Below, one piece after another: positions 748 through 56,332 of a stretch of 56,332 nucleotides of DNA (position 1 is its first letter; each line of letters starts with the position of its first letter). Under the pieces are notes generated by a model. That model did not search any database and had not been told where the DNA came from. It saw nothing but the letters and a program-made list of their open reading frames with translations. The translations under genes and the position numbers were made by a program. Origin of the DNA: Escherichia phage HelliStehle_Bas95; the sequence record PQ850607.1; one strand, 5' to 3'.

Positions 748-2375
748 TGTCTAAACGTGACGTGTGGGAGTTTGAAACAGACGAAGATGTATGGCTACTG
801 GCCGACTATCTGGAACAGAAAGCCAACAGCGTTAACTTTACATTTGAGGATGACTCAGAGGTAGACGCATTCTTCCTTAAATGTAAGAACGAGTTCCAGT
901 TCTTCGCTGAACGGTGCTGTACCATCCGCACGAAGGATAACACCCTGGAGCCGATACGCCTCAACAAGGCTCAGAAGTATATGTGTGCTATTGCGGCATG
1001 GCAGGCCCATCACACCGGTAAAGTACGCCTCATTATTGTTAAGGGACGTCAGCAAGGGATGAGTACGGTTGTTCAGGCTCGTGCATTCTGGAAGACCATC
1101 CACACTGAAGCGTACAACGCGTTGATCATGGCACACCAGGCTAAGTCCTCCGCTGCACTATTCGATATGACCAAGCGTTACTATCAATATTGCCCAGAGG
1201 ACTTGCAGCCTTCCAAAGGTCACGATAACGGCTTCGTACTTAAGTTTGCTGAACTTGACTCACAATATAGCGTGGCCACCGCTGGTAGCTCTGCCGCTGG
1301 TCGTGGTATGACAGCATCTTATTTTCATGCGTCGGAAGCAGCCTACTTTGCAGATGGTGCCGAGATCGCATCAGGTATCATGCAGGCCATCCCTAACGCT
1401 GACGGTACCGAAGTATTCCTTGAGTCGACCGCTAACGGTGCGTCAGGCTACTTCTATAACCAGTGGATGCAGGCATCCCCGCCACGTGACACGTCGTTGA
1501 AGGATGCTGATAGCTCCGGGTTCATTCGCGTATTCGTACCGTGGTTCTGGCAACCTGAGTACGCTGAACCAGCACCTGAGAGCATGGTGTACACTGACGA
1601 GGAGAGTAAATACGCACGTTTACATGGTCTTACCCGTGATCAGATGTTCTGGCGTCGCATGAAGGTGAAGTCGCTTGATGGTGATACCCGTCGATTTAAC
1701 CGCGATTACCCTGCTACGGCTGAAGAAGCATTCCAGTCTACTGGTGACAACTTGCTGATCAGCGGTGATATGATCGCCTCAGCTCTCTACTGGGCACGCT
1801 CCGGTAAGCTGGACCCGGTAGGTGCTACCGTTATGGGCGTAGACGTTGCTGCTATGGGTGACGACCAGACTGCAATAGTCATTCGCCGTGGCCGCGTGGT
1901 GCAACATGCCGAGACGTTAAGTAAGGCCACCAACAGGGAGATTGCCAACCGTATTCACGTGCTGCGTGAGATGTACGGCGTCAACCACACGTTCATCGAT
2001 GGTACTGGTGGCTTTGGTACAGGTGTACATGACGTAATGACCGAGCGCGGAATGTCCCACGGTGTGACGATGGTTCACTTTGCAGAGAAGGCTACCGAAG
2101 ACCACAAGTACAACAACAAGCGCTCGGAGATGTGGGCGAAAATGCGCGACTGGCTACGTAACGCCGCCGCACTCCCGCCCGGTCATGACTGGGGTCGCGA
2201 CTTATGCGGCGCTACCTATCGCTTTGAAGGTGACAGGTTGAGACTGGAACCGAAGGCTGACATCAAGAAGCGTATCGGTCGCTCGCCGGATATCGGGGAT
2301 GCACTGGCGTTAACCTTCGCGTTCCCTGTGGTCGAGGGTGGCTACAACGACTCTTACGAGCCGGAGTACGCTTAA
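747..2375 (+). CDS. terL: terminase large subunit
   Basis: 542 aa; P-loop-like VKGRQQGMST near N-terminus, acidic nuclease-type C-terminal half; sits upstream of portal/scaffold/capsid. Confidence 0.85.
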   Translation: MSKRDVWEFETDEDVWLLADYLEQKANSVNFTFEDDSEVDAFFLKCKNEFQFFAERCCTIRTKDNTLEPIRLNKAQKYMCAIAAWQAHHTGKVRLIIVKGRQQGMSTVVQARAFWKTIHTEAYNALIMAHQAKSSAALFDMTKRYYQYCPEDLQPSKGHDNGFVLKFAELDSQYSVATAGSSAAGRGMTASYFHASEAAYFADGAEIASGIMQAIPNADGTEVFLESTANGASGYFYNQWMQASPPRDTSLKDADSSGFIRVFVPWFWQPEYAEPAPESMVYTDEESKYARLHGLTRDQMFWRRMKVKSLDGDTRRFNRDYPATAEEAFQSTGDNLLISGDMIASALYWARSGKLDPVGATVMGVDVAAMGDDQTAIVIRRGRVVQHAETLSKATNREIANRIHVLREMYGVNHTFIDGTGGFGTGVHDVMTERGMSHGVTMVHFAEKATEDHKYNNKRSEMWAKMRDWLRNAAALPPGHDWGRDLCGATYRFEGDRLRLEPKADIKKRIGRSPDIGDALALTFAFPVVEGGYNDSYEPEYA

Positions 2376-3910
2376 CGCTCCATACGGGCTGTACCAGAGT
2401 TAAACAACTGGCCGCAGCCCGCTTTCTCCCACGCATCACGCTGAGAAGTGTAGTCGCCTATCACCTTGCCCATCTCCTTCAAAGTTGACTCAATGTTAGC
2501 GTGCTGCCACTTCTGGCGACTCATGAAGTACCCGCGATCGCTCCAGATACGGAACGACTCGACCACGCTCACAACCTTGAAACCTATAGCTTCGTAAGCG
2601 CTACCGGTGAAGTAGTCATAGTCGGTGAACGTGTAGGTACAGGGTGTTCCTTTCAGCAGACGCGACAGGCCACCTTGCACTGTACATGACGTTGCATATC
2701 TCACCAGTTCCCCATCGTTGGCTACACCAATTGCAGCAACCAGACCGAGCGTCGGGTGTACCAGACCTTTGCGGATAGCTGCCACTCGCCCACGCTGAAC
2801 GTGGTTGTCTTCCATGAATGACATGTAGTCACTCGATGACAACTCAACAACCTTACACTTACGTGCGCCAACCTTTGGCTCACTCGACTTACCCAGCGCG
2901 TGCGCAATGATGCGTTCAATCTGCGGGCGACGCTCTGACCAATCCGTGGCCGACACAGAGATTAGACGGTAACCCTGAGCGTTGCAGAGTTCACGTTTCA
3001 TCATATGATAACCCTTGCGGTCCTTATGCCAGTACTCACCGTTAAACTCGATGGCAACCTTGCACGACTCGATGACGATGTCGAGTTCATAAGGTGCGAT
3101 GATGGACTTGACGTTGTGGGCAACTGTTACACCAAGTGACTCGATATACTCACGCACTTCAATCTCACCACGTGAAACCTGCGTTGACTGTGCACAATGA
3201 GGGCAACCGCTCTTATTCACGATGACATTGTTGACCCGAGCAACCCATTGCTTCCCGCAGTCACCGCACTCGAATTCGCTGTCACCCTTACTTTCTTTGT
3301 AGGTGAGTAGGGTGAGGTTGGAAGGTAAACGACGCTCAATCTCTTCACGTGGTATTACTCGCGCTTTCCCATTGCGACGTTGCCCACAACCTTTACAATA
3401 ACGCTGCCCTGTCATCACGCCGTGCGCGGATGTTTCACGCTCACACCCGCAATCAGCACAGGTGAACACGCTCTTACCTTCCGCTGTCCCACAGTATCTG
3501 ACAAGCTTCACGCCTTCCGGTAAGCGTGCAATAACATCAGATTCGCTAAGCGCGTTACGTTGAGCGGCGCACACCTTGCATCCGCTCCCTTTGGTTAACA
3601 GGTCTTTACACGTAGTTTCCCACTCGTGACCCTCAGTGCAACGGAAGGTACTGCGTTCACGCCGTGATCCACCGTAGGTGACCAGGGTGATACCTTCGGG
3701 CATTGCTGGTGCAGGTTTAACGAAGCGTTGACCGCGGTTACGCTCGGAGCACGCAGGGCAACCTGATGATCTGAATTGTGCGTTGGTTGTACGTGACCAA
3801 TGGTGGCCGCACTCGACGCAACGGAATTCACACACCTTGTCAAGTTTCAGGAGCACCACACCTTTCTGTAAGCGCGGGATAACGTCGGCGTGAGTTAGTT
3901 TAGCTGGCAT
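2372..3910 (-). CDS. zinc-ribbon repeat protein with PD-(D/E)xK (DUF559/Vsr-like) nuclease motif; putative free-standing homing endonuclease
   Basis: 512 aa; four tandem CxxC...HxW...CxxC ribbons, then ELDIV ... AIEFNGEYWH motif; opposite strand inserted between terL and tail-fibre genes. Confidence 0.65.
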   Translation of the reverse strand: MPAKLTHADVIPRLQKGVVLLKLDKVCEFRCVECGHHWSRTTNAQFRSSGCPACSERNRGQRFVKPAPAMPEGITLVTYGGSRRERSTFRCTEGHEWETTCKDLLTKGSGCKVCAAQRNALSESDVIARLPEGVKLVRYCGTAEGKSVFTCADCGCERETSAHGVMTGQRYCKGCGQRRNGKARVIPREEIERRLPSNLTLLTYKESKGDSEFECGDCGKQWVARVNNVIVNKSGCPHCAQSTQVSRGEIEVREYIESLGVTVAHNVKSIIAPYELDIVIESCKVAIEFNGEYWHKDRKGYHMMKRELCNAQGYRLISVSATDWSERRPQIERIIAHALGKSSEPKVGARKCKVVELSSSDYMSFMEDNHVQRGRVAAIRKGLVHPTLGLVAAIGVANDGELVRYATSCTVQGGLSRLLKGTPCTYTFTDYDYFTGSAYEAIGFKVVSVVESFRIWSDRGYFMSRQKWQHANIESTLKEMGKVIGDYTSQRDAWEKAGCGQLFNSGTARMER

Positions 3911-24964: not shown

Positions 24965-25472
24965 AATTTTCTCTCACTATTCGTGTATAGCCGCGATTGT
25001 ATTTGAACTCTGGTCCCCAGTCTGTGACACGTGCCACATTGTGGAAATTATGCATTTCGATTCTGATTTGCGATTCTTTACAGCCAAACATGGCCGCTAT
25101 CTTGTCGCACCAGCTGAGATCCGTTTCAGCAATTCTGGCGACAACCTCATCGGCCACGGTTTGTGGAGAATCGATACCGTAAAGGTCTTCTATTTCCAGC
25201 CATAACTTAGTACCTGCCAGCCGCCTGGTCACCGACCACAACCATTGTGTATGTGCTGTTTGACCCAATGCTTTACGGGGTGACATATGCCCCAGTATTT
25301 CGTGCCTGGCGACTTCTTTCAGTCTGTAGGCAGGCATCGGGAAGAACACTACAGCTTCCTCACTGTACAGCGCCACCGCCTCAACGTTATAGGGCATCGG
25401 GTGAAACGACTCACACTTCAGATAATGAACGTCACATATACCGTCAACCAACCTGTCTACATAAGCACTCAT
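24930..25472 (-). CDS. HExxH-motif protein (putative ImmA/SprT-like zinc metallopeptidase)
   Basis: 180 aa containing VARHEILGHM; strong SD AAGGAGG; overlaps downstream membrane-protein gene. Confidence 0.45.
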   Translation of the reverse strand: MSAYVDRLVDGICDVHYLKCESFHPMPYNVEAVALYSEEAVVFFPMPAYRLKEVARHEILGHMSPRKALGQTAHTQWLWSVTRRLAGTKLWLEIEDLYGIDSPQTVADEVVARIAETDLSWCDKIAAMFGCKESQIRIEMHNFHNVARVTDWGPEFKYNRGYTRIVRENYEIFREEKQKR

Positions 25473-43071: not shown

Positions 43072-43372
43072 GGCGGCTGGCCTCCTGTGCATCAACGATT
43101 GCTTCGTTTGTGGCGACAATGAGATCCACCACATGTTTTGCGAGTACGGTAAGATTCCCGTGTCGCGCTTGATTCACCACGTTGATCGCGGTGTTCTCAT
43201 CCGTCATCATTTCCACGCCGTCAATCAGGTCGACGATGAATTTGTGGCGGTCATACTCCCGGTTAAAGCTGGCGATGTCCGGGTGGTTATCAAGATGAAA
43301 GCAACACCTGTATCCTTTAGGTAAATTGGTAACGCGATCACCTACTCGCGGCCCGTCGATTAAAAGAATCAT
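43061..43372 (-). CDS. hypothetical protein
   Basis: start at MILLIDGP...; ATGA overlap with HNH gene. Confidence 0.45.
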   Translation of the reverse strand: MILLIDGPRVGDRVTNLPKGYRCCFHLDNHPDIASFNREYDRHKFIVDLIDGVEMMTDENTAINVVNQARHGNLTVLAKHVVDLIVATNEAIVDAQEASRHVR

Positions 43373-43974
43373 GCTTTGTGTTCTCCGTGGTTGGCAAATT
43401 CTCCATGTGCCAGTCGTTGAGCCTGTAACCATTCCACGGCGAGGCGTTTACCTTCTTCAGTTAAAGGGAAGTATTTAACATTCTTGCATACTCCCGCACG
43501 ATAACACTTTCCTTTATTTACAGACAAACCTTTGATACCCGTCGAACTATCAAACCGCGTTTGTCTATTCCAACTGTTCTCGTCCGGTTCAGCTTCCCGT
43601 AAATTAGAGATTCGATTATCATCACGAATCCCGTTAAGATGGTCTAACCATCCGTTAGGTGGTTCACCGTAATACATTTCCCATATAATACGGTGAACCT
43701 TCCAACACTTGCCGTCAAACGTGCATTGTCTATAACCTTTCGGATCAAGCGAACCAACCTCATCACCAGCTTTAACGCGACGAGCCGTTGGTCTTTTCCA
43801 GAACAGCTTCCCGGTAACAGGGTCGTAACGAAAATGATGCTCAAATAAATGTAGCGACAATTTGAGCCTCCTTGCGATGTGATCTGTGAATGGTAACGAC
43901 TCCAGCCGTTTCAAGTTTCTTCGCCGCCTTGCGCACATGCTCTTTGTCATAGCCGGTATAGGAGGCCAGTTCAT
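43369..43974 (-). CDS. HNH homing endonuclease with AP2-like DNA-binding domain
   Basis: GKLFWK...GYRQC..DGK.WKVHRIIWEMYYGEPP.GW.DHLNG.RDDNR.SNL; start uncertain (overlaps upstream ORF). Confidence 0.7.
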   Translation of the reverse strand: MNWPPIPAMTKSMCARRRRNLKRLESLPFTDHIARRLKLSLHLFEHHFRYDPVTGKLFWKRPTARRVKAGDEVGSLDPKGYRQCTFDGKCWKVHRIIWEMYYGEPPNGWLDHLNGIRDDNRISNLREAEPDENSWNRQTRFDSSTGIKGLSVNKGKCYRAGVCKNVKYFPLTEEGKRLAVEWLQAQRLAHGEFANHGEHKA

Positions 43975-44764: not shown

Positions 44765-45460
44765 TTATTTATAGGCTTCCAGTGCTAGTCTACAAATATG
44801 TGATCTAACGCAATCATTTTCATGGAAGAGAATACCCTGAACGTCGTCAGAGTCATGGAAACGGGCCAGCGCGTCGCTCAGACCGTCTTGCATACCTTTC
44901 GGTAAATCACACTGAGTGACGTCACCGTTGACGACCACGATACAGTTTTCCCCGATACGCGTGAGGAAAGTTTTCATCTGTTTTACGGTTGTGTTCTGCG
45001 CTTCGTCGAGGATGATGAACGCGTTGTCAAAGCTGCGGCCACGCATGTAGGCGAACGGTGCAATCTCAATCTTACCGTGGTCCATGCAGTATTTGAAATG
45101 CGTCTCGCCCAAGCGTCGCTTCAGGGTTTCGGATACAGGTTTAAAATACGGATCAAACTTAGCGTTAATGTCACCCGGCAGGAAGCCCATGTCTTCATCC
45201 GCGTTGAGTACAGGGCGGGTAACGATGATTCGTTCAACGACTTTGTCAGTGAGGTACTCAGCAGCCTTACACGCCGCGATAAATGTCTTCCCGCATCCGG
45301 CAGCACCGCTGGCGAAAATAAGGGATTTGGTTCGAATGGCCTCAAGATATGACTCCTGATTTACGGTGCGCGGTTCAATCGGTGATTTATCTGCGCGGGT
45401 GACGGGGGAAGGGTTGGTGTTAAGCTCGACAACTTCAGCAGTGTTGCGTTTCTTACCCAT
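44765..45460 (-). CDS. phoH: PhoH-like ATPase
   Basis: GAAGCGKTF Walker A, IILDEAQN, GDVTQCDL; start at ATG 45460 with SD GAGGTG. Confidence 0.8.
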   Translation of the reverse strand: MGKKRNTAEVVELNTNPSPVTRADKSPIEPRTVNQESYLEAIRTKSLIFASGAAGCGKTFIAACKAAEYLTDKVVERIIVTRPVLNADEDMGFLPGDINAKFDPYFKPVSETLKRRLGETHFKYCMDHGKIEIAPFAYMRGRSFDNAFIILDEAQNTTVKQMKTFLTRIGENCIVVVNGDVTQCDLPKGMQDGLSDALARFHDSDDVQGILFHENDCVRSHICRLALEAYK

Positions 45461-45505
45461 AGAGCACCTCGTTTGAGAGGGGCGCGGGATTGCGCCCATC
45501 GTTTA

Positions 45506-46701: not shown

Positions 46702-47331
46702 TTAATCCGCAGTAATGAAAGAATCTACATCCGGCGGCCACGTGTCTTGCGGCTGCGGCGGTAATGCAGGTTTGTTATTGAGTTTGGCGTAAGCCTTGCA
46801 CACCCACTCAACCTGGTACCGGGCATCATGCAGCGCGTTATGATACTGGATGTGCGCTGGACGCGTGCGGGGCATCTGCATACCTGCAAGCCACATGATA
46901 GTTCTGACGTCTCGCACGTTCCAGAATTTGTACGGGTATTCGTGACCAAACTTCCCAATCTGCGGCGTTGTCTGACGCATCCACCACTCGATAATCGGAA
47001 TGTCAAATACGCTACCATTAGCCCACACCTGACAATCACTCAGGTTGTATTTGACAAACCAGTCACGGAACGACCGTGATGCGTGGCGCGGATCGGACTT
47101 CCCGTTGTAGGCTTCTTCGCGTGCGGCGGCGTCCTGACCTTCCCACCACTTCAAGGTATTGATGTCAGCCAGACCATACTGTTGCGCTTTGTCTTTATCC
47201 ATGCGCTCGTAGAACTCTGCTACAATATCGCCCGTGGTGATGTCGAACGCACAGGCACCGATCGTTAACAGTGGTGCGTTAGGCGTGGTCGCCAACGTTT
47301 CACAGTCAATCATTACATGAAGGTTACTCAT
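46702..47331 (-). CDS. DnaQ-like 3'-5' exonuclease (DEDDh)
   Basis: VMIDCETLA (Exo I), FDIPIIEWW (Exo II), YHNALHDARY (Exo III). Confidence 0.7.
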   Translation of the reverse strand: MSNLHVMIDCETLATTPNAPLLTIGACAFDITTGDIVAEFYERMDKDKAQQYGLADINTLKWWEGQDAAAREEAYNGKSDPRHASRSFRDWFVKYNLSDCQVWANGSVFDIPIIEWWMRQTTPQIGKFGHEYPYKFWNVRDVRTIMWLAGMQMPRTRPAHIQYHNALHDARYQVEWVCKAYAKLNNKPALPPQPQDTWPPDVDSFITAD

Positions 47332-48915: not shown

Positions 48916-49125
48916 TTACCAACTAGCTAAACATTTATCAGTCGGTTGGCGAATAATCCAGTTACCATCAGTAAACTTAATCGTCAAAAATGTTTCGTGG
49001 CGGTTGCCTTTAATCTCCTTAACTTTTAGCGATACTTTAATGCACCAGCGCGGTTCGAAAACACGATCACCCGGATTAAGTTTGCCGTAGGTAGTCAGGC
49101 GGAAGTGTGGTTTATTTGTTGCCAT
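48916..49125 (-). CDS. hypothetical protein
   Basis: start at MATNKPHF; uncertain. Confidence 0.4.
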   Translation of the reverse strand: MATNKPHFRLTTYGKLNPGDRVFEPRWCIKVSLKVKEIKGNRHETFLTIKFTDGNWIIRQPTDKCLASW

Positions 49126-49768
49126 CAGAAGGTACCCCGCACAGTGCGTTAAGCGTGGAGACATCAAGCGCAATCTCGGTAGACTTAGGTTTCGGCTGTT
49201 CGGCTTCCGGTAAAAGCTCCACCGCTTCAGGCCACACTTTTAACAGTGCCTTGATGGTGCGTACGGGTTTGACCTGGGCGGTGATGGTGGCGCACAAGGT
49301 ATCATACTCAGCGCGCAGCTTCTTAGCCTCCCCATCCAGCGCCATCAACTCATCGCGTGCGGAGTCGAACGGGTAAACAAGTGTGCGGCCACTATTCCAG
49401 CATGGGGCGAAATGGTGGTCTACTGTTGCTCCACTGTCGCCAAAGAGCGTGGCGGCTTCGTCGTAGCGGCTCCATTTGGTACCGTCCAGCCGCAGATCGT
49501 GATAGTGGCCGCCAACGTTAACACTGAAGCTACTGGTTTCCACACGCAGATCCACGTAGCCAAAGTTTTTGACGAGTTCGTTAATGTGCTCGACGTCACG
49601 CTTTAATTCTGATATTTCCTCAACGCTTAAACCAGCTTGCTTGAGGAAATAATCACGGATACGCAGTGTCACGGCAGAGCGACGGGCGCAGATGTCTTTG
49701 TCGCGTGCGGCAATACCGGACTTGATTGCAGCGTTACAGATGATTGCGTCGATGATAGATTGTTTCAT
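49112..49768 (-). CDS. hypothetical protein
   Basis: 218-aa ORF. Confidence 0.5.
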   Translation of the reverse strand: MKQSIIDAIICNAAIKSGIAARDKDICARRSAVTLRIRDYFLKQAGLSVEEISELKRDVEHINELVKNFGYVDLRVETSSFSVNVGGHYHDLRLDGTKWSRYDEAATLFGDSGATVDHHFAPCWNSGRTLVYPFDSARDELMALDGEAKKLRAEYDTLCATITAQVKPVRTIKALLKVWPEAVELLPEAEQPKPKSTEIALDVSTLNALCGVPSDGNK

Positions 49769-54519: not shown

Positions 54520-54774
54520 TTACTTATGCTTAGGTTGCCAGTGTTTTAAGAGCACCTCCTTATCTTCAGGGTAATTTAACGAAGCACTCGCCGAAAATGT
54601 GCTCATGGTTGTGTAAACCTTACCGCCTACCATAAAACTTTCACTGCGTTGATGCGGTACCTCGACACGGCGACCGGAAGGTAGTACGCCTACAAAGGTA
54701 TCTCCGACTATTGACGACTTACCAAGCTGTAACCCACCCGGACAAACGTTATTGAACACGTCGTAAGGTCTCAT
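54520..54774 (-). CDS. hypothetical protein
   Basis: 84-aa ORF. Confidence 0.5.
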   Translation of the reverse strand: MRPYDVFNNVCPGGLQLGKSSIVGDTFVGVLPSGRRVEVPHQRSESFMVGGKVYTTMSTFSASASLNYPEDKEVLLKHWQPKHK

Positions 54775-55814
54775 AATTTAATCTCCCGTTTAAAGTTATC
54801 AGCTTTATTAGCGTTACTGGCATTGCGCATCAACATATAAGCCTGCATGGCCTCGCGGATCACGTGGCGGATGTGCTGCAGTATATCGAAGTGTCCCCCG
54901 GTTAAGCCTGGAGTGGTCAAAGCAATATTATTAATCCACGCCATATCTTCAGGGTATTCCATCACATCCTTACCCGTCTTGAGTCTGCCGCCAACACCAA
55001 CACCCTTGGCGTCCGTGTAGCGCAGGCTCCAGTCTTTGCGACCCTGGAGGCAAGGCAACTTATCATAAAGGTAAGCTACCGCAGGCGCTGGCGGCTCATT
55101 AACCCACATAAAAGCCATAGTGTCATGATGGTAGACGCTGGCCCGTGCCTGGCGGTAACGCTCAGACGCTGAATCAACGCACTTAACACAGCCGCCGTTG
55201 GACGTGTAGCGTTGAGTGGATGCGCAACGTTTGCAGGGTGTCGACTCGTAGAACTTTAAGCCCTGCTCTAAAGCCTGGCCTCGCGGCGACTCAACGCTTG
55301 GCCCTTTAATGCACATCACACAGCCGCCGTTAGAGGTGAAGCGCTCCGTAGTCCCACACTTACCACAAGGTGAACCGTCGTACCTTTTGAGGCCATTGGC
55401 TTTAGCTAACTGGCGGGGAGTCGGTGTACGGTCAAGCGGCTTTAAGCTGGCAATATGACATTGCTGACATTTTGTGGTTGTCACCAGTCTTGTGGTTGAA
55501 CCACATTTAACGCACGGCTGCCCTTCATATGTTTTAGCACCCGACGCTTTAGCTGCGATGCGTGCATCTACTATCGGCGACGGTCGACCGCCTCCACATC
55601 CTTTGCGCTGACACTCAACACAGGAACCGTTAGCTGTGTAACGTTCAGATCGCACACCTTCAAAACATTGTATACAAGGGCGTCCCCAGTAACGAGGGTT
55701 GCGCTCGGCGCGCGCTTCTCTTCTTGAGTCGGCTGGCGGTTGCCGCTTCCCTTTCTCCTCAGGTACGTTCTCATCCATCCAGGCGAAAACTTCGTTCATG
55801 TCTAACTCTTCCAT
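54771..55814 (-). CDS. early protein with five tandem zinc-ribbon repeats
   Basis: 347 aa; repeats of Y-x-G-x-PC-x-KCG-(S/T)-T-x-R-(Y/F)-T-S-N-G-x-C-V-x-C; first gene after the leftward early promoter. Confidence 0.6.
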   Translation of the reverse strand: MEELDMNEVFAWMDENVPEEKGKRQPPADSRREARAERNPRYWGRPCIQCFEGVRSERYTANGSCVECQRKGCGGGRPSPIVDARIAAKASGAKTYEGQPCVKCGSTTRLVTTTKCQQCHIASLKPLDRTPTPRQLAKANGLKRYDGSPCGKCGTTERFTSNGGCVMCIKGPSVESPRGQALEQGLKFYESTPCKRCASTQRYTSNGGCVKCVDSASERYRQARASVYHHDTMAFMWVNEPPAPAVAYLYDKLPCLQGRKDWSLRYTDAKGVGVGGRLKTGKDVMEYPEDMAWINNIALTTPGLTGGHFDILQHIRHVIREAMQAYMLMRNASNANKADNFKREIKL

Positions 55815-55846
55815 TGGTATACCTCCAGTTGTTTAGTTGAGATTGC

Positions 55847-55875
55847 AGTTTACTACAGGTTAGATAGCAGGTCAA
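55847..55875 (-). promoter_or_regulatory. leftward early promoter TTGACC-17-TAAACT
   Basis: read on - strand; AT-rich upstream region; about 26-nt leader with SD GGAGGT. Confidence 0.45.
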
Positions 55876-55881
55876 CTAACC

Positions 55882-56055
55882 AAACTCGTAGCCCTCCTAA
55901 AATATTCAAAAACTTTCTTAGAAATTTTGTAGAACACTAACTAAGTAATACTTATATATCTAACTTAATATACTATAATCTATTGCTTGCGATAATATAT
56001 ATCTAACTTAATGTACTATTCAGCAGCTTAAATATTTTGGGTGGGCTACGAGTTT
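55882..56055. repeat. control-region repeats: 13-bp inverted repeat pair flanking two 24-bp direct repeats
   Basis: AAACTCGTAGCCC (55882-55894) / GGGCTACGAGTTT (56043-56055); TATATATCTAACTTAAT(A/G)TACTAT at 55953-55976 and 55996-56019; CTAACTAAGTAA at 55937 and 56141. Confidence 0.6.
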
Positions 56056-56267
56056 AATACTTTAACGTTAGGTCTAACCTATACGTGGGTCTTCTTCTCT
56101 TCCTTCCAAATATTTTCAGGGTGCTAACACCCGTGGCCCCCTAACTAAGTAAAGCAGCCGTTAGCATCTAACTAAGCTCAAAGTTTAGCCAATTCCTGTA
56201 GCGCTATGCGAAATCTAAGAAAGCAGCAGGGTAAGACATCTGGCCTTTTTACGCAGACGCGCGATAT

Positions 56268-56311
56268 TTGTGTGACACGCATCACACTGTTATGATGTGC
56301 AGGTGATCACA
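56268..56311 (+). promoter_or_regulatory. candidate rightward promoter for gene 1, overlapped by two CRP-like sites
   Basis: TTGTGT-17-TATGAT (56268-56296); TGTGA-N6-TCACA at 56271-56286 (perfect half-sites) and TGTGC-N6-TCACA at 56296-56311. Confidence 0.4.
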
Positions 56312-56332
56312 AACACCTAAAGGAATGACGTC

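What the first reader, a model, noticed from the sequence alone, without database searches (positions are those of the whole stretch)
55815..56332. 518-bp non-coding control region with nested repeats between divergent early and late blocks
The region contains a 13-bp inverted repeat pair (55882-55894 / 56043-56055) enclosing two 24-bp direct repeats (55953-55976, 55996-56019) and three copies of CTAACTAAG(T/C). It is flanked by a leftward early promoter and a rightward promoter for gene 1. This architecture is typical of a replication origin, packaging site or regulatory hub; it is the largest gene-free stretch in the genome.
Basis: seen in the sequence. Interest (0 to 1): 0.5.

Follow-up and report, generated by a model that had tools for sequence, protein, structure and literature searches.

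The report
Phage genome-end control region with palindrome
The 518-bp gene-free stretch is the control region of a little-studied E. coli podophage, holding the early and late promoters, a long palindrome whose two arms change together, short repeated motifs and the probable cutting site for genome ends; it is a real, conserved element of a broadly familiar kind with some unusual details.

Summary
The window is a complete Xuquatrovirus-like podophage genome that starts at the small-terminase gene. The region is therefore the spacer between the leftward early genes and terS/terL.

Sixteen related loci keep the same layout:
- a sigma-70 early promoter;
- an interrupted palindrome that folds into a 145-190 nt hairpin. 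The arm sequences are not conserved, but 10 stem pairs change on both sides in each of three close pairs of relatives;
- an AT-rich centre with same-sense 9-bp iterons (5 of the 9 genome copies lie here) and a small conserved core;
- a universal GTGGCC box;
- a conserved late promoter overlapped by TGTGA-N6-TCACA (CRP-type) palindromes.

PTXU04 has a non-permuted genome, and its record was linearised at read ends. The record starts 8 nt before the GTGGCC box, which places the genome end here by inference.

The palindrome always adjoins a Zn-ribbon early gene that is essential in PTXU04.

Best reading: a DNA-level genome-end, replication and packaging hub, T7-like in logic. The origin and packaging roles are inferred, not shown. 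Novelty is moderate.

The parts
55847..55875 (-). Leftward sigma-70-type early promoter (-35 TTGACC, 17-nt spacer, -10 TAAACT). It drives the first early gene (54771-55814), with a Shine-Dalgarno GGAGGT at 55821-55826 on the minus strand.
   Evidence: Promoter scan. Similar sites at the same place in PTXU04 and L005. Its -35 lies in the outer left arm of the palindrome.
55854..56083 (.). Interrupted palindrome. Outer arms are 55854-55909 / 56028-56083. The core stem is 55882-55906 / 56031-56055 (25 positions: 23 Watson-Crick, 1 G.T, 1 T.T).
   Evidence: z = -6.0. Homologous palindromes occur in 11 further loci. There are 10 both-sided changes against L019 with none broken.
55910..56027 (+). 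AT-rich centre of the palindrome. It holds the two 24-bp direct repeats (55953-55976, 55996-56019), three same-sense iterons (55936-55944, 55959-55967, 56002-56010) and the conserved apex core TTGCTTGCGATAATA (55983-55997).
   Evidence: The centre is 89% identical to L019, against 50-60% for the arms. The core alignment of 12 loci has invariant GA and near-invariant G.GAA.
56090..56107 (+). 18-nt all-pyrimidine tract between the palindrome and the GC box.
   Evidence: Read. Conserved in L019, L015 and L016.
56123..56138 (+). GC-rich box GCTAACACCCGTGGCC. GTGGCC (56133-56138) is present in every relative. Position ~56123 corresponds to base 1 of the PTXU04 record, so it is the probable virion DNA end or terminase cutting zone.
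   Evidence: GTGGCC in all loci. PTXU04 record start and methods. That this is the genome end is an inference.
56140..56175 (+). Two further same-sense iterons: CCTAACTAA (56140-56148) and TCTAACTAA (56167-56175).
   Evidence: Relatives carry their own iteron pair at this position.
56176..56332 (+). Conserved block. It contains a second CTGGCC box (56240-56245); the gene 1 promoter (-35 TTGTGT 56268-56273, TG 56288-56289, -10 TATGAT 56291-56296); palindromic operator-like sites TGTGA-N6-TCACA at 56271-56286 (perfect) and 56296-56311 (TGTGC half-site); and a Shine-Dalgarno AAGGAA (56320-56325) before the gene 1 ATG at window position 1.
   Evidence: 88% identical to PTXU04 over window 56176-56332. 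Alignment of 10 relatives with invariant half-sites and a variable N6. Motif counts.
54771..55814 (-). First early gene: 347 aa, four Zn-ribbon repeats plus a conserved C-terminal domain. It is the constant neighbour of the palindrome and the candidate trans-acting partner.
   Evidence: Its PTXU04 homologue gp92 scores 'Fit' in the CRISPRi-ART screen (PMC11879866 source data). No family or fold match was found.

Best explanation
The region is the composite, DNA-level control region at the junction of the genome ends of a Xuquatrovirus-like podophage. It has two modules.

Module A (left, fast-evolving)
- It contains the sigma-70 early promoter and the interrupted palindrome, whose AT-rich centre carries same-sense iterons and a small conserved core.
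- It always sits next to an essential early Zn-ribbon gene.
- I take it to be a cis-acting DNA element that acts when the duplex is opened or under-wound and the arms pair as a hairpin or cruciform. Its role would be to start replication or to process and duplicate the genome end. This is comparable to the hairpin intermediate and the end-proximal origins of T7. The Zn-ribbon protein is the likely partner.

Module B (right, conserved)
- It contains the GTGGCC box, two more iterons and a 157-bp conserved block.
- I take it to be the zone where terminase recognises and cuts concatemers, because the virion DNA end maps here in PTXU04.
- It also holds the host-RNA-polymerase promoter for terS/terL. 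Two TGTGA-N6-TCACA palindromes, centred near -24.5 and +1, would shut this promoter when bound by CRP-cAMP or a phage mimic.

Shown:
- the anatomy and its conservation;
- co-variation of the arms;
- enrichment of the motifs;
- linkage to the Zn-ribbon gene.

Inferred:
- the position of the genome end in this phage;
- hairpin or cruciform use;
- the replication and packaging roles;
- which proteins bind.
For: 1. Conserved architecture without conserved sequence.
- Each of 10 loci folds into a single 145-190 nt hairpin, with z from -3.6 to -10.3. An eleventh palindrome lies in L013.
- The window's palindrome gives z = -6.0.

2. Arm co-variation.
- Against the closest relative, L019, the arms are 50-60% identical. 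Four-fold sites of the flanking genes are 70-76% identical, the centre 89% and the right part 88-92%.
- L019's arms nonetheless match at 31 of 32 positions.
- Each of three independent close pairs shows 10 both-sided changes and 0-1 one-sided changes.

3. DNA level rather than RNA level.
- No promoter-like site is placed to transcribe both arms.
- There is no wobble excess.
- There is no Rfam match above chance.

4. Iterons.
- 5 of 9 genome copies lie in the region, all same-sense and on both sides of the GC box.
- Each lineage has its own version.
- T7 has an analogous array, with 11 CCTAAAG copies in its first 340 bp.

5. Genome end.
- PTXU04 is not permuted according to BAL-31 digestion, and contigs in that study were linearised where reads ended abruptly (PMC6563267).
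- The PTXU04 record starts 30 bp right of the palindrome and 8 nt before GTGGCC.
- L014 and L017 run seamlessly across that junction.
- GTGGCC is present in every locus.

6. Linkage to the Zn-ribbon gene.
- The palindrome lies next to the Zn-ribbon gene in 13 of 13 loci where its left flank is held. This includes L013, where 1.6 kb of genes separate it from terS.
- The PTXU04 homologue is essential-like.

7. Late promoter and operators.
- The promoter and the half-sites are invariant while N6 varies.
- There are 31 such sites in 8.5 kb of spacers, against 5 in the whole 56-kb genome.
- In distant relatives, TGTGA starts at the last T of the -10 hexamer at most rightward promoters (read by eye).
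Against: - There are no end-mapping data for this phage. The PTXU04 paper reports no terminal repeat and no cos site, and the record ends carry no duplication.
- In five assemblies the region lies inside the contig. This fits a collapsed terminal repeat, but it also fits ends that lie elsewhere.
- TerL is too divergent to assign a packaging type.
- Iteron sequence differs between phages whose TerS is 95% identical, so TerS is unlikely to read the iterons.
- The Zn-ribbon protein has no detectable family or fold, so its role as partner rests on position alone.
- The replication genes lie 14-30 kb away.
- GC skew only follows gene orientation.
- The palindrome could be maintained by arm-to-arm copying without selection for a hairpin.
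Confidence: 0.45

Rival explanations
1. Replication origin only. Like the origin of lactococcal Ceduovirus (c2-type) phages or the promoter-plus-AT-rich origins of T7 and T4, the early promoter region and the AT-rich iteron/palindrome centre start replication. The genome ends and the packaging signal lie elsewhere.
For: - The region lies between divergent early and late blocks, as does the Ceduovirus origin. That origin is also non-coding and falls into sequence types with no similarity to each other (PMC7150918).
- It has an AT-rich centre, iterons and an adjacent essential early gene.
- The replication proteins are T7-like: a gp2.5-like SSB, an exonuclease, a DNA polymerase and a primase/helicase.
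Against: - The PTXU04 record start falls in this spacer, and that genome is non-permuted.
- No promoter is placed to transcribe through the palindrome as c2's PE1 does.
- No known initiator domain is present in the neighbouring protein.
Confidence: 0.2
2. Transcriptional switch only. The arms and iterons are binding sites for an early regulator, perhaps the Zn-ribbon protein, which loops or occludes the DNA to turn early transcription off and late transcription on. The palindrome has no role in replication or packaging.
For: - The -35 of the early promoter lies in the outer left arm.
- Operator-like palindromes sit on the late promoter.
- Lineage-specific iterons accompany a fast-evolving neighbouring protein: 30-44% identity, against 59-98% for TerS.
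Against: - 25-60 nt of continuous complementarity that co-varies base by base is what base pairing requires. It is not what two protein sites 150 bp apart require.
- The arm sequence turns over between phages whose Zn-ribbon proteins are 90% identical.
Confidence: 0.15
3. Structured RNA. The palindrome is transcribed as a long hairpin, for example an RNase III-processed leader of the early operon or a small RNA.
For: - Strong predicted hairpins occur in all relatives.
- Many compensatory changes are present.
- There is a slight excess of A.C over G.T oppositions, 13 against 5, p about 0.1. This would allow G.U pairs in a leftward transcript.
Against: - The only leftward promoter-like site lies left of the core stem and points away from the palindrome, so its transcript carries no pairing partner. 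No site to the right of the palindrome would transcribe both arms.
- Almost no one-sided changes of the G.U-intermediate type occur.
- Most stem mismatches are transversion-type.
- There is no Rfam match above chance.
Confidence: 0.07
4. Invertible switch or a mobile/selfish inverted-repeat element (inverton or MITE-like).
For: - Inverted repeats flank a 118-bp segment.
- Several assemblies break inside the palindrome.
Against: - The centre has the same orientation in all 13 loci where it is held.
- The element sits at the same place next to the same gene across relatives whose TerS is only 59-66% identical.
- No recombinase or transposase was found among the ORFs screened.
- Assembly breaks are expected at any long inverted repeat.
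Confidence: 0.03

Closest known systems
Terminal non-coding region / concatemer junction of phage T7 (160-bp terminal repeat, CCTAAAG short-repeat arrays, A0, phiOL and A1-A3 promoters, hairpin intermediate in end duplication)
   Same: - In T7 a non-permuted podovirus genome has a gene-free end region that combines same-sense short repeats (11 CCTAAAG in the first 340 bp), strong host-polymerase early promoters pointing inward and end-proximal origin promoters.
- A DNA hairpin is proposed as an intermediate in T7 terminal-repeat duplication (as summarised in PMC4281155).
- The window phage has T7-like replication proteins.
- Its early promoter spacer even resembles that of T7 A1.
   Different: - No phage RNA polymerase or its promoters were found among the ORFs screened.
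- No terminal repeat is demonstrated.
- There are far fewer repeat copies (5).
- The long co-varying palindrome has no described T7 counterpart of this size.
- terS/terL sit directly at the other side of the junction.
Origin and cos regions of lactococcal Ceduovirus (c2-type) phages
   Same: - The c2-type origin lies in the non-coding spacer between divergent early and late modules. It is flanked by early promoters and comes in sequence types with no mutual similarity but the same function (PMC7150918).
- The c2-type cos region carries direct repeats, inverted repeats, palindromes and putative terminase-binding repeats.
   Different: - In c2 the origin (central spacer) and cos (genome ends) are separate loci.
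- The c2 origin works through an untranslated early transcript (title of Schiemann 2004, cited). No such transcript is predicted here.
- The host and the phage lineage are unrelated.
Lambda cos (cosQ-cosN-cosB immediately upstream of the small-terminase gene Nu1)
   Same: The order is cut site, then short repeated protein-binding sites, then the promoter-proximal small-terminase gene. This matches GTGGCC box, then two iterons, then terS. The lambda layout is from my own knowledge.
   Different: - Cohesive ends are not shown here.
- The box has no cosN-like symmetry.
- Iterons differ between phages with 95% identical TerS.
- Only one L018 iteron fits the IHF consensus (WATCAANNNNTTR); the others checked by eye do not.
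Quasi-palindrome (template-switch) correction of imperfect inverted repeats in E. coli
   Same: Clustered changes appear on both arms at once and restore complementarity, with almost no one-sided intermediates. This is what arm-to-arm templated copying predicts. The mechanism is from my own knowledge.
   Different: That mechanism is a mutational process, not a function. It explains how the arms stay paired, not why the palindrome is kept at one locus across the whole clade.
CRP-cAMP operator sites of E. coli
   Same: A perfect TGTGA-N6-TCACA core is present at 56271-56286, and two to four such sites occur per spacer in relatives. Several are close to the full consensus, for example TGTGATCTCCATCACA.
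   Different: - The sites are centred near -24.5 and +1 of the promoter. These are repressing positions, not the -41.5 or -61.5 activating positions.
- The 3' flank is asymmetric (TCACACT).
- Binding has not been tested, and a phage protein with the same specificity is not excluded.

Membership tests
T7-type genome-end / concatemer-junction region | Defined (non-permuted) virion DNA ends lying in this region | not testable with these tools
   No reads are available for this phage. Indirect evidence comes from PTXU04: it is non-permuted by BAL-31, its contig was linearised at read ends (PMC6563267), and its record starts inside the homologous spacer.
T7-type genome-end / concatemer-junction region | Short direct terminal repeat | tested here: inconclusive
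   The ends of the PTXU04 record carry no duplication, and L014/L017 cross the junction seamlessly. Assemblies collapse terminal repeats, so this does not exclude one. Two GTGGCC/CTGGCC boxes 107 bp apart could mark its borders, which is an untested idea.
T7-type genome-end / concatemer-junction region | Arrays of short same-sense repeats flanking the end | tested here: met
   Five same-sense YCTAACTWA copies lie on both sides of the GC box, which is 5 of 9 genome copies. L018 has 8 copies. The T7 array was verified.
T7-type genome-end / concatemer-junction region | Phage RNA polymerase and its end-proximal promoters (phiOL/phiOR) | tested here: not met
   No RNA polymerase or sigma factor was found among about 45 ORFs screened with PHROGs or Pfam. 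The screen was not exhaustive.
Transcription-dependent phage origin in the early-late spacer (Ceduovirus c2 type) | Non-coding region between divergent early and late modules | tested here: met
   ORF map and greedy ORF cover.
Transcription-dependent phage origin in the early-late spacer (Ceduovirus c2 type) | An early promoter that transcribes the origin as an untranslated RNA | tested here: not met
   The only leftward promoter-like site (55875->55847) lies left of the core stem and points away from the palindrome. No consistent site lies to its right in 13 loci. This was a consensus scan only.
Transcription-dependent phage origin in the early-late spacer (Ceduovirus c2 type) | Supports plasmid replication | not testable with these tools
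   This needs cloning into an ori-less vector and infection.
Lambda-type cos site | Cohesive single-stranded ends produced at a symmetric nicking site | not testable with these tools
   No end data are available. By inspection the GTGGCC box has no extended two-fold symmetry.
Lambda-type cos site | Small-terminase binding repeats between the cut site and the terS gene | tested here: inconclusive
   Two iterons lie in the right place (56140, 56167). However, the iteron sequence differs between the window and PTXU04, whose TerS proteins are 95% identical.
CRP-cAMP binding site | TGTGA-N6-TCACA core | tested here: met
   56271-56286 is a perfect match and 56296-56311 has one mismatch. There are 31 sites in 8.5 kb of related spacers, about 41-fold over the genome density. 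Half-sites are invariant and N6 is variable.
CRP-cAMP binding site | Activating position (-41.5, -61.5 and so on) relative to the promoter | tested here: not met
   With the -10 at 56291-56296, the site centres fall near -24.5 and +1 (coordinates). In distant relatives TGTGA starts at the last T of the -10 at most of the rightward promoters. This is repressor geometry.
CRP-cAMP binding site | Bound by CRP-cAMP | not testable with these tools
   This needs a gel-shift or footprint assay, or infection of crp/cya hosts. No CRP-like phage protein was found among the early ORFs screened.
Structured RNA (Rfam family / RNase III hairpin) | Match to a curated RNA family | tested here: not met
   Only two chance-level matches (E = 5.3 and 9.9), far below the gathering scores.
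Structured RNA (Rfam family / RNase III hairpin) | Covariation with G.U-tolerant, stepwise changes on the transcribed strand | tested here: not met
   0-1 one-sided changes against 10 both-sided changes in each of three pairs. Stem mismatches were 13 A.C, 5 G.T and 33 other.
Invertible DNA switch | Both orientations of the segment observed, with a recombinase nearby | tested here: not met
   The centre has the same orientation in all 13 loci where it is held. No recombinase was found among the ORFs screened.

The most novel reading that the evidence does not exclude
The palindrome-iteron module and the adjacent essential Zn-ribbon early protein form a previously undescribed replication-start or end-processing system of podophages. 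In it, a long DNA hairpin or cruciform next to the genome end is the substrate. Its stem is free to change, is kept paired by arm-to-arm copying, and turns over faster than synonymous sites. Its loop carries the recognition elements (iterons plus the G.GAA core).
Probability: 0.25. Interest if true: 0.7.

Novelty: new variant of a known kind. Interest (0 to 1): 0.45.

Why it matters
Xuquatrovirus-like phages are almost unstudied. Most of the 17 genes that matter for PTXU04 infection have no known function, and nothing is known about how these phages replicate, cut or package their DNA.

This analysis makes three contributions:
- It pins down a single conserved 0.5-kb region in which early transcription, late transcription and probably the genome ends meet.
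- It links the region to one essential gene of unknown function.
- It gives precise coordinates for mutational and biochemical tests.

The fast-changing but always complementary arms are a clean natural case of selection, or templated repair, acting on DNA pairing rather than on sequence.

The CRP-type operators on the terminase promoter suggest that host nutritional state may gate late gene expression in a virulent phage.

All of this is useful for phage engineering, for example in choosing safe insertion sites and packaging signals. None of it overturns current concepts.

Tried and rejected
- **Rfam scan of the region:** only chance-level matches.
- **RNAalifold on the conserved right block:** no convincing structure on either strand.
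- **Search for the 24-bp repeat in IMG/VR:** no match.
- **Search for the conserved promoter block in IMG/VR and JGI metagenomes:** a first pattern with a wrong spacer length found nothing. The corrected pattern returned only PTXU04 itself and one already known contig. No contig-end evidence for termini came from this.
- **Logan contigs ending in the spacer (L010, L015-L017):** they stop at different points inside the palindrome. I read these as assembly breaks, not physical ends.
- **TerL typing:** only a weak T4 gp17 ATPase similarity, and below 31% identity to any characterised phage terminase over most of its length. The packaging class could not be assigned.
- **GC skew:** it follows gene orientation only.
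- **Zn-ribbon early protein:** no Pfam hit, no PDB sequence hit, and an AlphaFold model (pLDDT 72) with no Foldseek match at E <= 0.001. The 'endonuclease' label given to the PTXU04 homologue by others could not be reproduced.
- **Screen of 20 early ORFs for a CRP-like or other regulator:** only a sub-threshold RHH hit.
- **The 24-bp repeats as a phage-specific promoter (phiEco32-like TAATGTATA, recalled from memory):** rejected, because the motif occurs nowhere else in the genome and no sigma factor was found.
- **MITE or inverton:** rejected on constant position and orientation.
- **Second inverted repeat at 48963-49093:** it lies in a probable coding stretch and was not pursued.
- **TGTGA-like site at 25023:** it lies inside an ORF and is probably chance.
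Full report
**What the window is**

The 56,332-bp window starts at the ATG of a gene whose product weakly matches small terminases (phrog_51). It is followed by a large terminase and structural genes on the + strand. Replication genes lie in the middle: DNA polymerase, a gp2.5-like SSB, an exonuclease, a helicase and a primase. A long block of small leftward early genes ends at 55814.

The nearest database records are Escherichia phages PTXU04 and Pondi (genus Xuquatrovirus), with patchy 79-86% nucleotide identity. The BASEL paper describes a Xuquatrovirus relative, HelliStehle (Bas95), that is 58% identical to PTXU04 and aligns these genomes with the small terminase as starting point (PMC11990801). 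The window is probably that phage or a close relative; this is an inference.

Because the window is a circular representation cut at gene 1, the region 55815-56332 is the full spacer between the first early gene (leftward) and gene 1 (rightward).

**Check of the observation**

- The 13-bp inverted repeat is the core of a 25-bp stem (55882-55906 / 56031-56055). It also sits within 56-nt arms that are 73% complementary, the longest inverted repeat in the genome.
- As single-stranded DNA, 55850-56090 folds at -34.1 kcal/mol (z = -6.0), and none of 200 dinucleotide shuffles folds as well.
- CTAACTAAG occurs only here (3 of 3 copies). Relaxed to TCTAACTAA with one mismatch, 5 of 9 genome copies are here (0.08 expected), all on the + strand.
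- The stretch is the largest ORF-free region. Its GC content is 38%, against 51.5% for the genome.

**Relatives**

Homologues of gene 1 led to 15 further loci from public assemblies and from the two GenBank phages, with TerS identity of 59-98%. All loci that span it keep a 450-740 bp spacer with the same order of elements.

(a) Long imperfect palindrome
- It lies 20-70 bp from the leftward gene. Each of ten loci folds into one 145-190 nt hairpin, with z from -3.6 to -10.3.
- The arm sequences are not alignable between lineages.

(b) Loop
- It is AT-rich and carries copies of a short lineage-specific motif. One class is CTAACTAA (window, L019, Pondi, L009, L005). The other is C(C/T)TAATCA (PTXU04, L014, L017, L018).
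- It also carries a small conserved core: a pyrimidine run, then (C/T)G(C/T)GAA(G/A), then an ATA-rich stretch.

(c) GTGGCC box
- It lies 25-50 nt to the right of the palindrome and is present in every locus. A second copy often lies 56-150 bp further on.

(d) More copies of the lineage's iteron, in the same sense.

(e) Conserved promoter block upstream of gene 1.

**The palindrome co-varies**

L019 is the closest relative of the window's spacer. Its Zn-ribbon protein is 90% identical.

| Segment (window vs L019) | Identity |
|---|---|
| Centre of the palindrome | 89% |
| Right part of the spacer | 88-92% |
| Four-fold sites of the flanking genes | 70-76% |
| Palindrome arms | 50-60% |

Despite the arm divergence, L019's arms pair at 31 of 32 positions.

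I mapped the stem pairs of one phage onto its close relative for three independent pairs: window/L019, Pondi/L009 and PTXU04/L014. Each pair shows 10 both-sided changes that keep pairing and 0-1 one-sided changes. So pairing, not sequence, is maintained, and the arms turn over at least as fast as neutral sites.

Three observations argue for maintenance at the DNA level, by arm-to-arm templated copying plus selection, rather than for an RNA helix:
- one-sided intermediates are nearly absent;
- there is no G.T excess in the stems (13 A.C, 5 G.T, 33 other);
- no promoter-like site would transcribe both arms.

Rfam gives nothing.

**Linkage to a gene**

The gene next to the palindrome is always a member of one family. 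It has two to four Zn-ribbon repeats (Y.G.PC..CG.TERYTSN.GC..C) and a conserved C-terminal domain, with 30-44% identity among lineages.

In L013, three extra leftward genes separate the palindrome from terS by 1.6 kb. Even there, the palindrome and the first GTGGCC box stay with the Zn-ribbon gene.

The PTXU04 homologue, gp92, is one of the 17 'Fit' genes in a transcriptome-wide knock-down screen. Those authors labelled it 'endonuclease' from HHpred, at their lowest annotation quality (PMC11879866 and its source data). My own Pfam, PDB-sequence and fold searches found no relative, so its biochemical role is open.

**Genome ends**

Korf et al. showed by BAL-31 digestion that PTXU04 DNA is not circularly permuted. 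[quoted passage not shown] PTXU04 had no relatives to copy an arrangement from.

The record starts inside the homologous spacer:
- the start is 30 bp right of the palindrome and 8 nt before GTGGCC;
- the independent contigs L014 and L017 read straight through that junction, so nothing is missing or duplicated there.

The equivalent point in the window is about 56123. No terminal repeat or cos site was reported. Assemblies that run through the spacer fit a collapsed short terminal repeat, but they do not prove one. Contigs that stop inside the palindrome stop at different points and are assembly breaks. TerL is too divergent to classify.

That the virion ends lie here is therefore an inference from one relative.

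**Promoters**

A leftward TTGACC-17-TAAACT site (55875->55847) precedes the early gene. Similar sites occur in PTXU04 and L005.

Upstream of gene 1, TTGTGT-17-TG-n-TATGAT (56268-56296) lies in a block whose -10 region is invariant in ten relatives. Two palindromes overlap it:
- TGTGACACGCATCACA (56271-56286), centred near -24.5;
- TGTGCAGGTGATCACA (56296-56311), centred near +1.

The half-sites are invariant while the six central bases vary, which is the mark of a dimeric protein site. Such sites are about 41-fold enriched in the spacers. In distant relatives TGTGA starts at the last T of the -10 hexamer at most rightward promoters (read by eye). The core equals that of the E. coli CRP consensus (my own knowledge), but the positions are repressing, and no CRP-like phage gene was found among the early ORFs screened.

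**Interpretation**

I read the spacer as two modules.

- *The fast-evolving left module* comprises the early promoter, the palindrome with its iteron-bearing loop, and the neighbouring essential Zn-ribbon gene. It looks like a cis element and its partner. The need for 25-60 nt of pairing points to a hairpin or cruciform formed when the DNA is unwound, used either to start replication or to process or duplicate the nearby end.
- *The conserved right module* comprises the GTGGCC box, the conserved block and the terS promoter. It goes with the conserved terminase and is the likely recognition and cutting zone.

TerS is unlikely to read the iterons, because these differ between phages whose TerS is 95% identical.

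The closest analogue is the T7 genome end. It has same-sense short repeats (11 CCTAAAG), early host promoters, end-proximal origin promoters, and a hairpin intermediate in repeat duplication (summarised in PMC4281155). The lactococcal c2-type origin, in the early-late spacer and diverse in sequence (PMC7150918), is the closest analogue for the origin reading.

Membership in any of these families fails or cannot be tested on at least one defining feature, so I file the region as a new variant of a known kind of element.

**Confidence**

| Claim | Probability |
|---|---|
| The region is a conserved composite control region | about 0.9 |
| The virion ends or the terminase site lie in it | about 0.55 |
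| The palindrome acts as DNA rather than RNA | about 0.6-0.7 |
| The palindrome is specifically an origin | about 0.3 |
| The composite explanation as stated | 0.45 |

Noticed in passing
window 56271-56286 and 56296-56311; L005, L007, L008, L010, L012 and L013 spacers: TGTGA-N6-TCACA palindromes, the core of the E. coli CRP consensus, overlap the rightward promoters. In distant relatives they start at the last T of the -10 hexamer at most of these promoters, so they are centred on the transcription start. There are 31 sites in 8.5 kb of spacers against 5 in the whole 56-kb genome. This suggests repression of the terminase/late promoter by CRP-cAMP or a phage mimic.
   Followed up: partly
window 54771-55814 (-): The first early gene encodes four Zn-ribbon repeats (two in most relatives) plus a conserved C-terminal domain. 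Its PTXU04 homologue gp92 is essential-like in a published knock-down screen. No family or fold match was found.
   Followed up: partly
window 2372-3910 (-): A 512-aa HNH/homing endonuclease gene (phrog_559, E = 5e-78) lies antisense directly after terL, inside the rightward late block. PTXU04 has no gene at that place.
   Followed up: no
window 55853-55869 (minus strand) and 56072-56083: The early promoter spacer (TGCTATCTAACCTGTAG) and the outer right arm (GTCTAACCTATA) resemble the spacer of the T7 A1 promoter (TAAAGTCTAACCTATAG). The 12-mer identity has about 0.06 expected by chance and was noticed post hoc.
   Followed up: partly
window 56090-56107: An 18-nt all-pyrimidine tract lies between the palindrome and the GC box. 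It is conserved in L019, L015 and L016.
   Followed up: no
L007 2772-2909, L010 347-496, L013 1693-1830: Distant relatives carry a conserved 45-49 aa ORF (MV.KVPGG.QFGNNPPTT.EKA..QM.AAYANGWKGPGR) inside the spacer, downstream of one of the operator-bearing promoters. L005 and L012 carry a different small ORF there. The window has none.
   Followed up: no
L010, L015, L016, L017 (contig ends): Four independent public assemblies break inside the palindrome, at different points. This is an assembly artefact of the inverted repeat and could be mistaken for genome ends.
   Followed up: yes
window 56133-56138 and 56240-56245: Two copies of a (G/C)TGGCC box lie 107 bp apart, and relatives also have two copies 56-150 bp apart. 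They could mark the borders of a short terminal repeat; this is untested.
   Followed up: no
window 49112-49768, 46702-47331, 44765-45499, 43369-43974 (all -): The early block encodes an Nmad5 (nucleotide-modification-associated) domain protein, an Rv2179c-like 3'-5' exoribonuclease, a PhoH-like ATPase and an HNH endonuclease.
   Followed up: no
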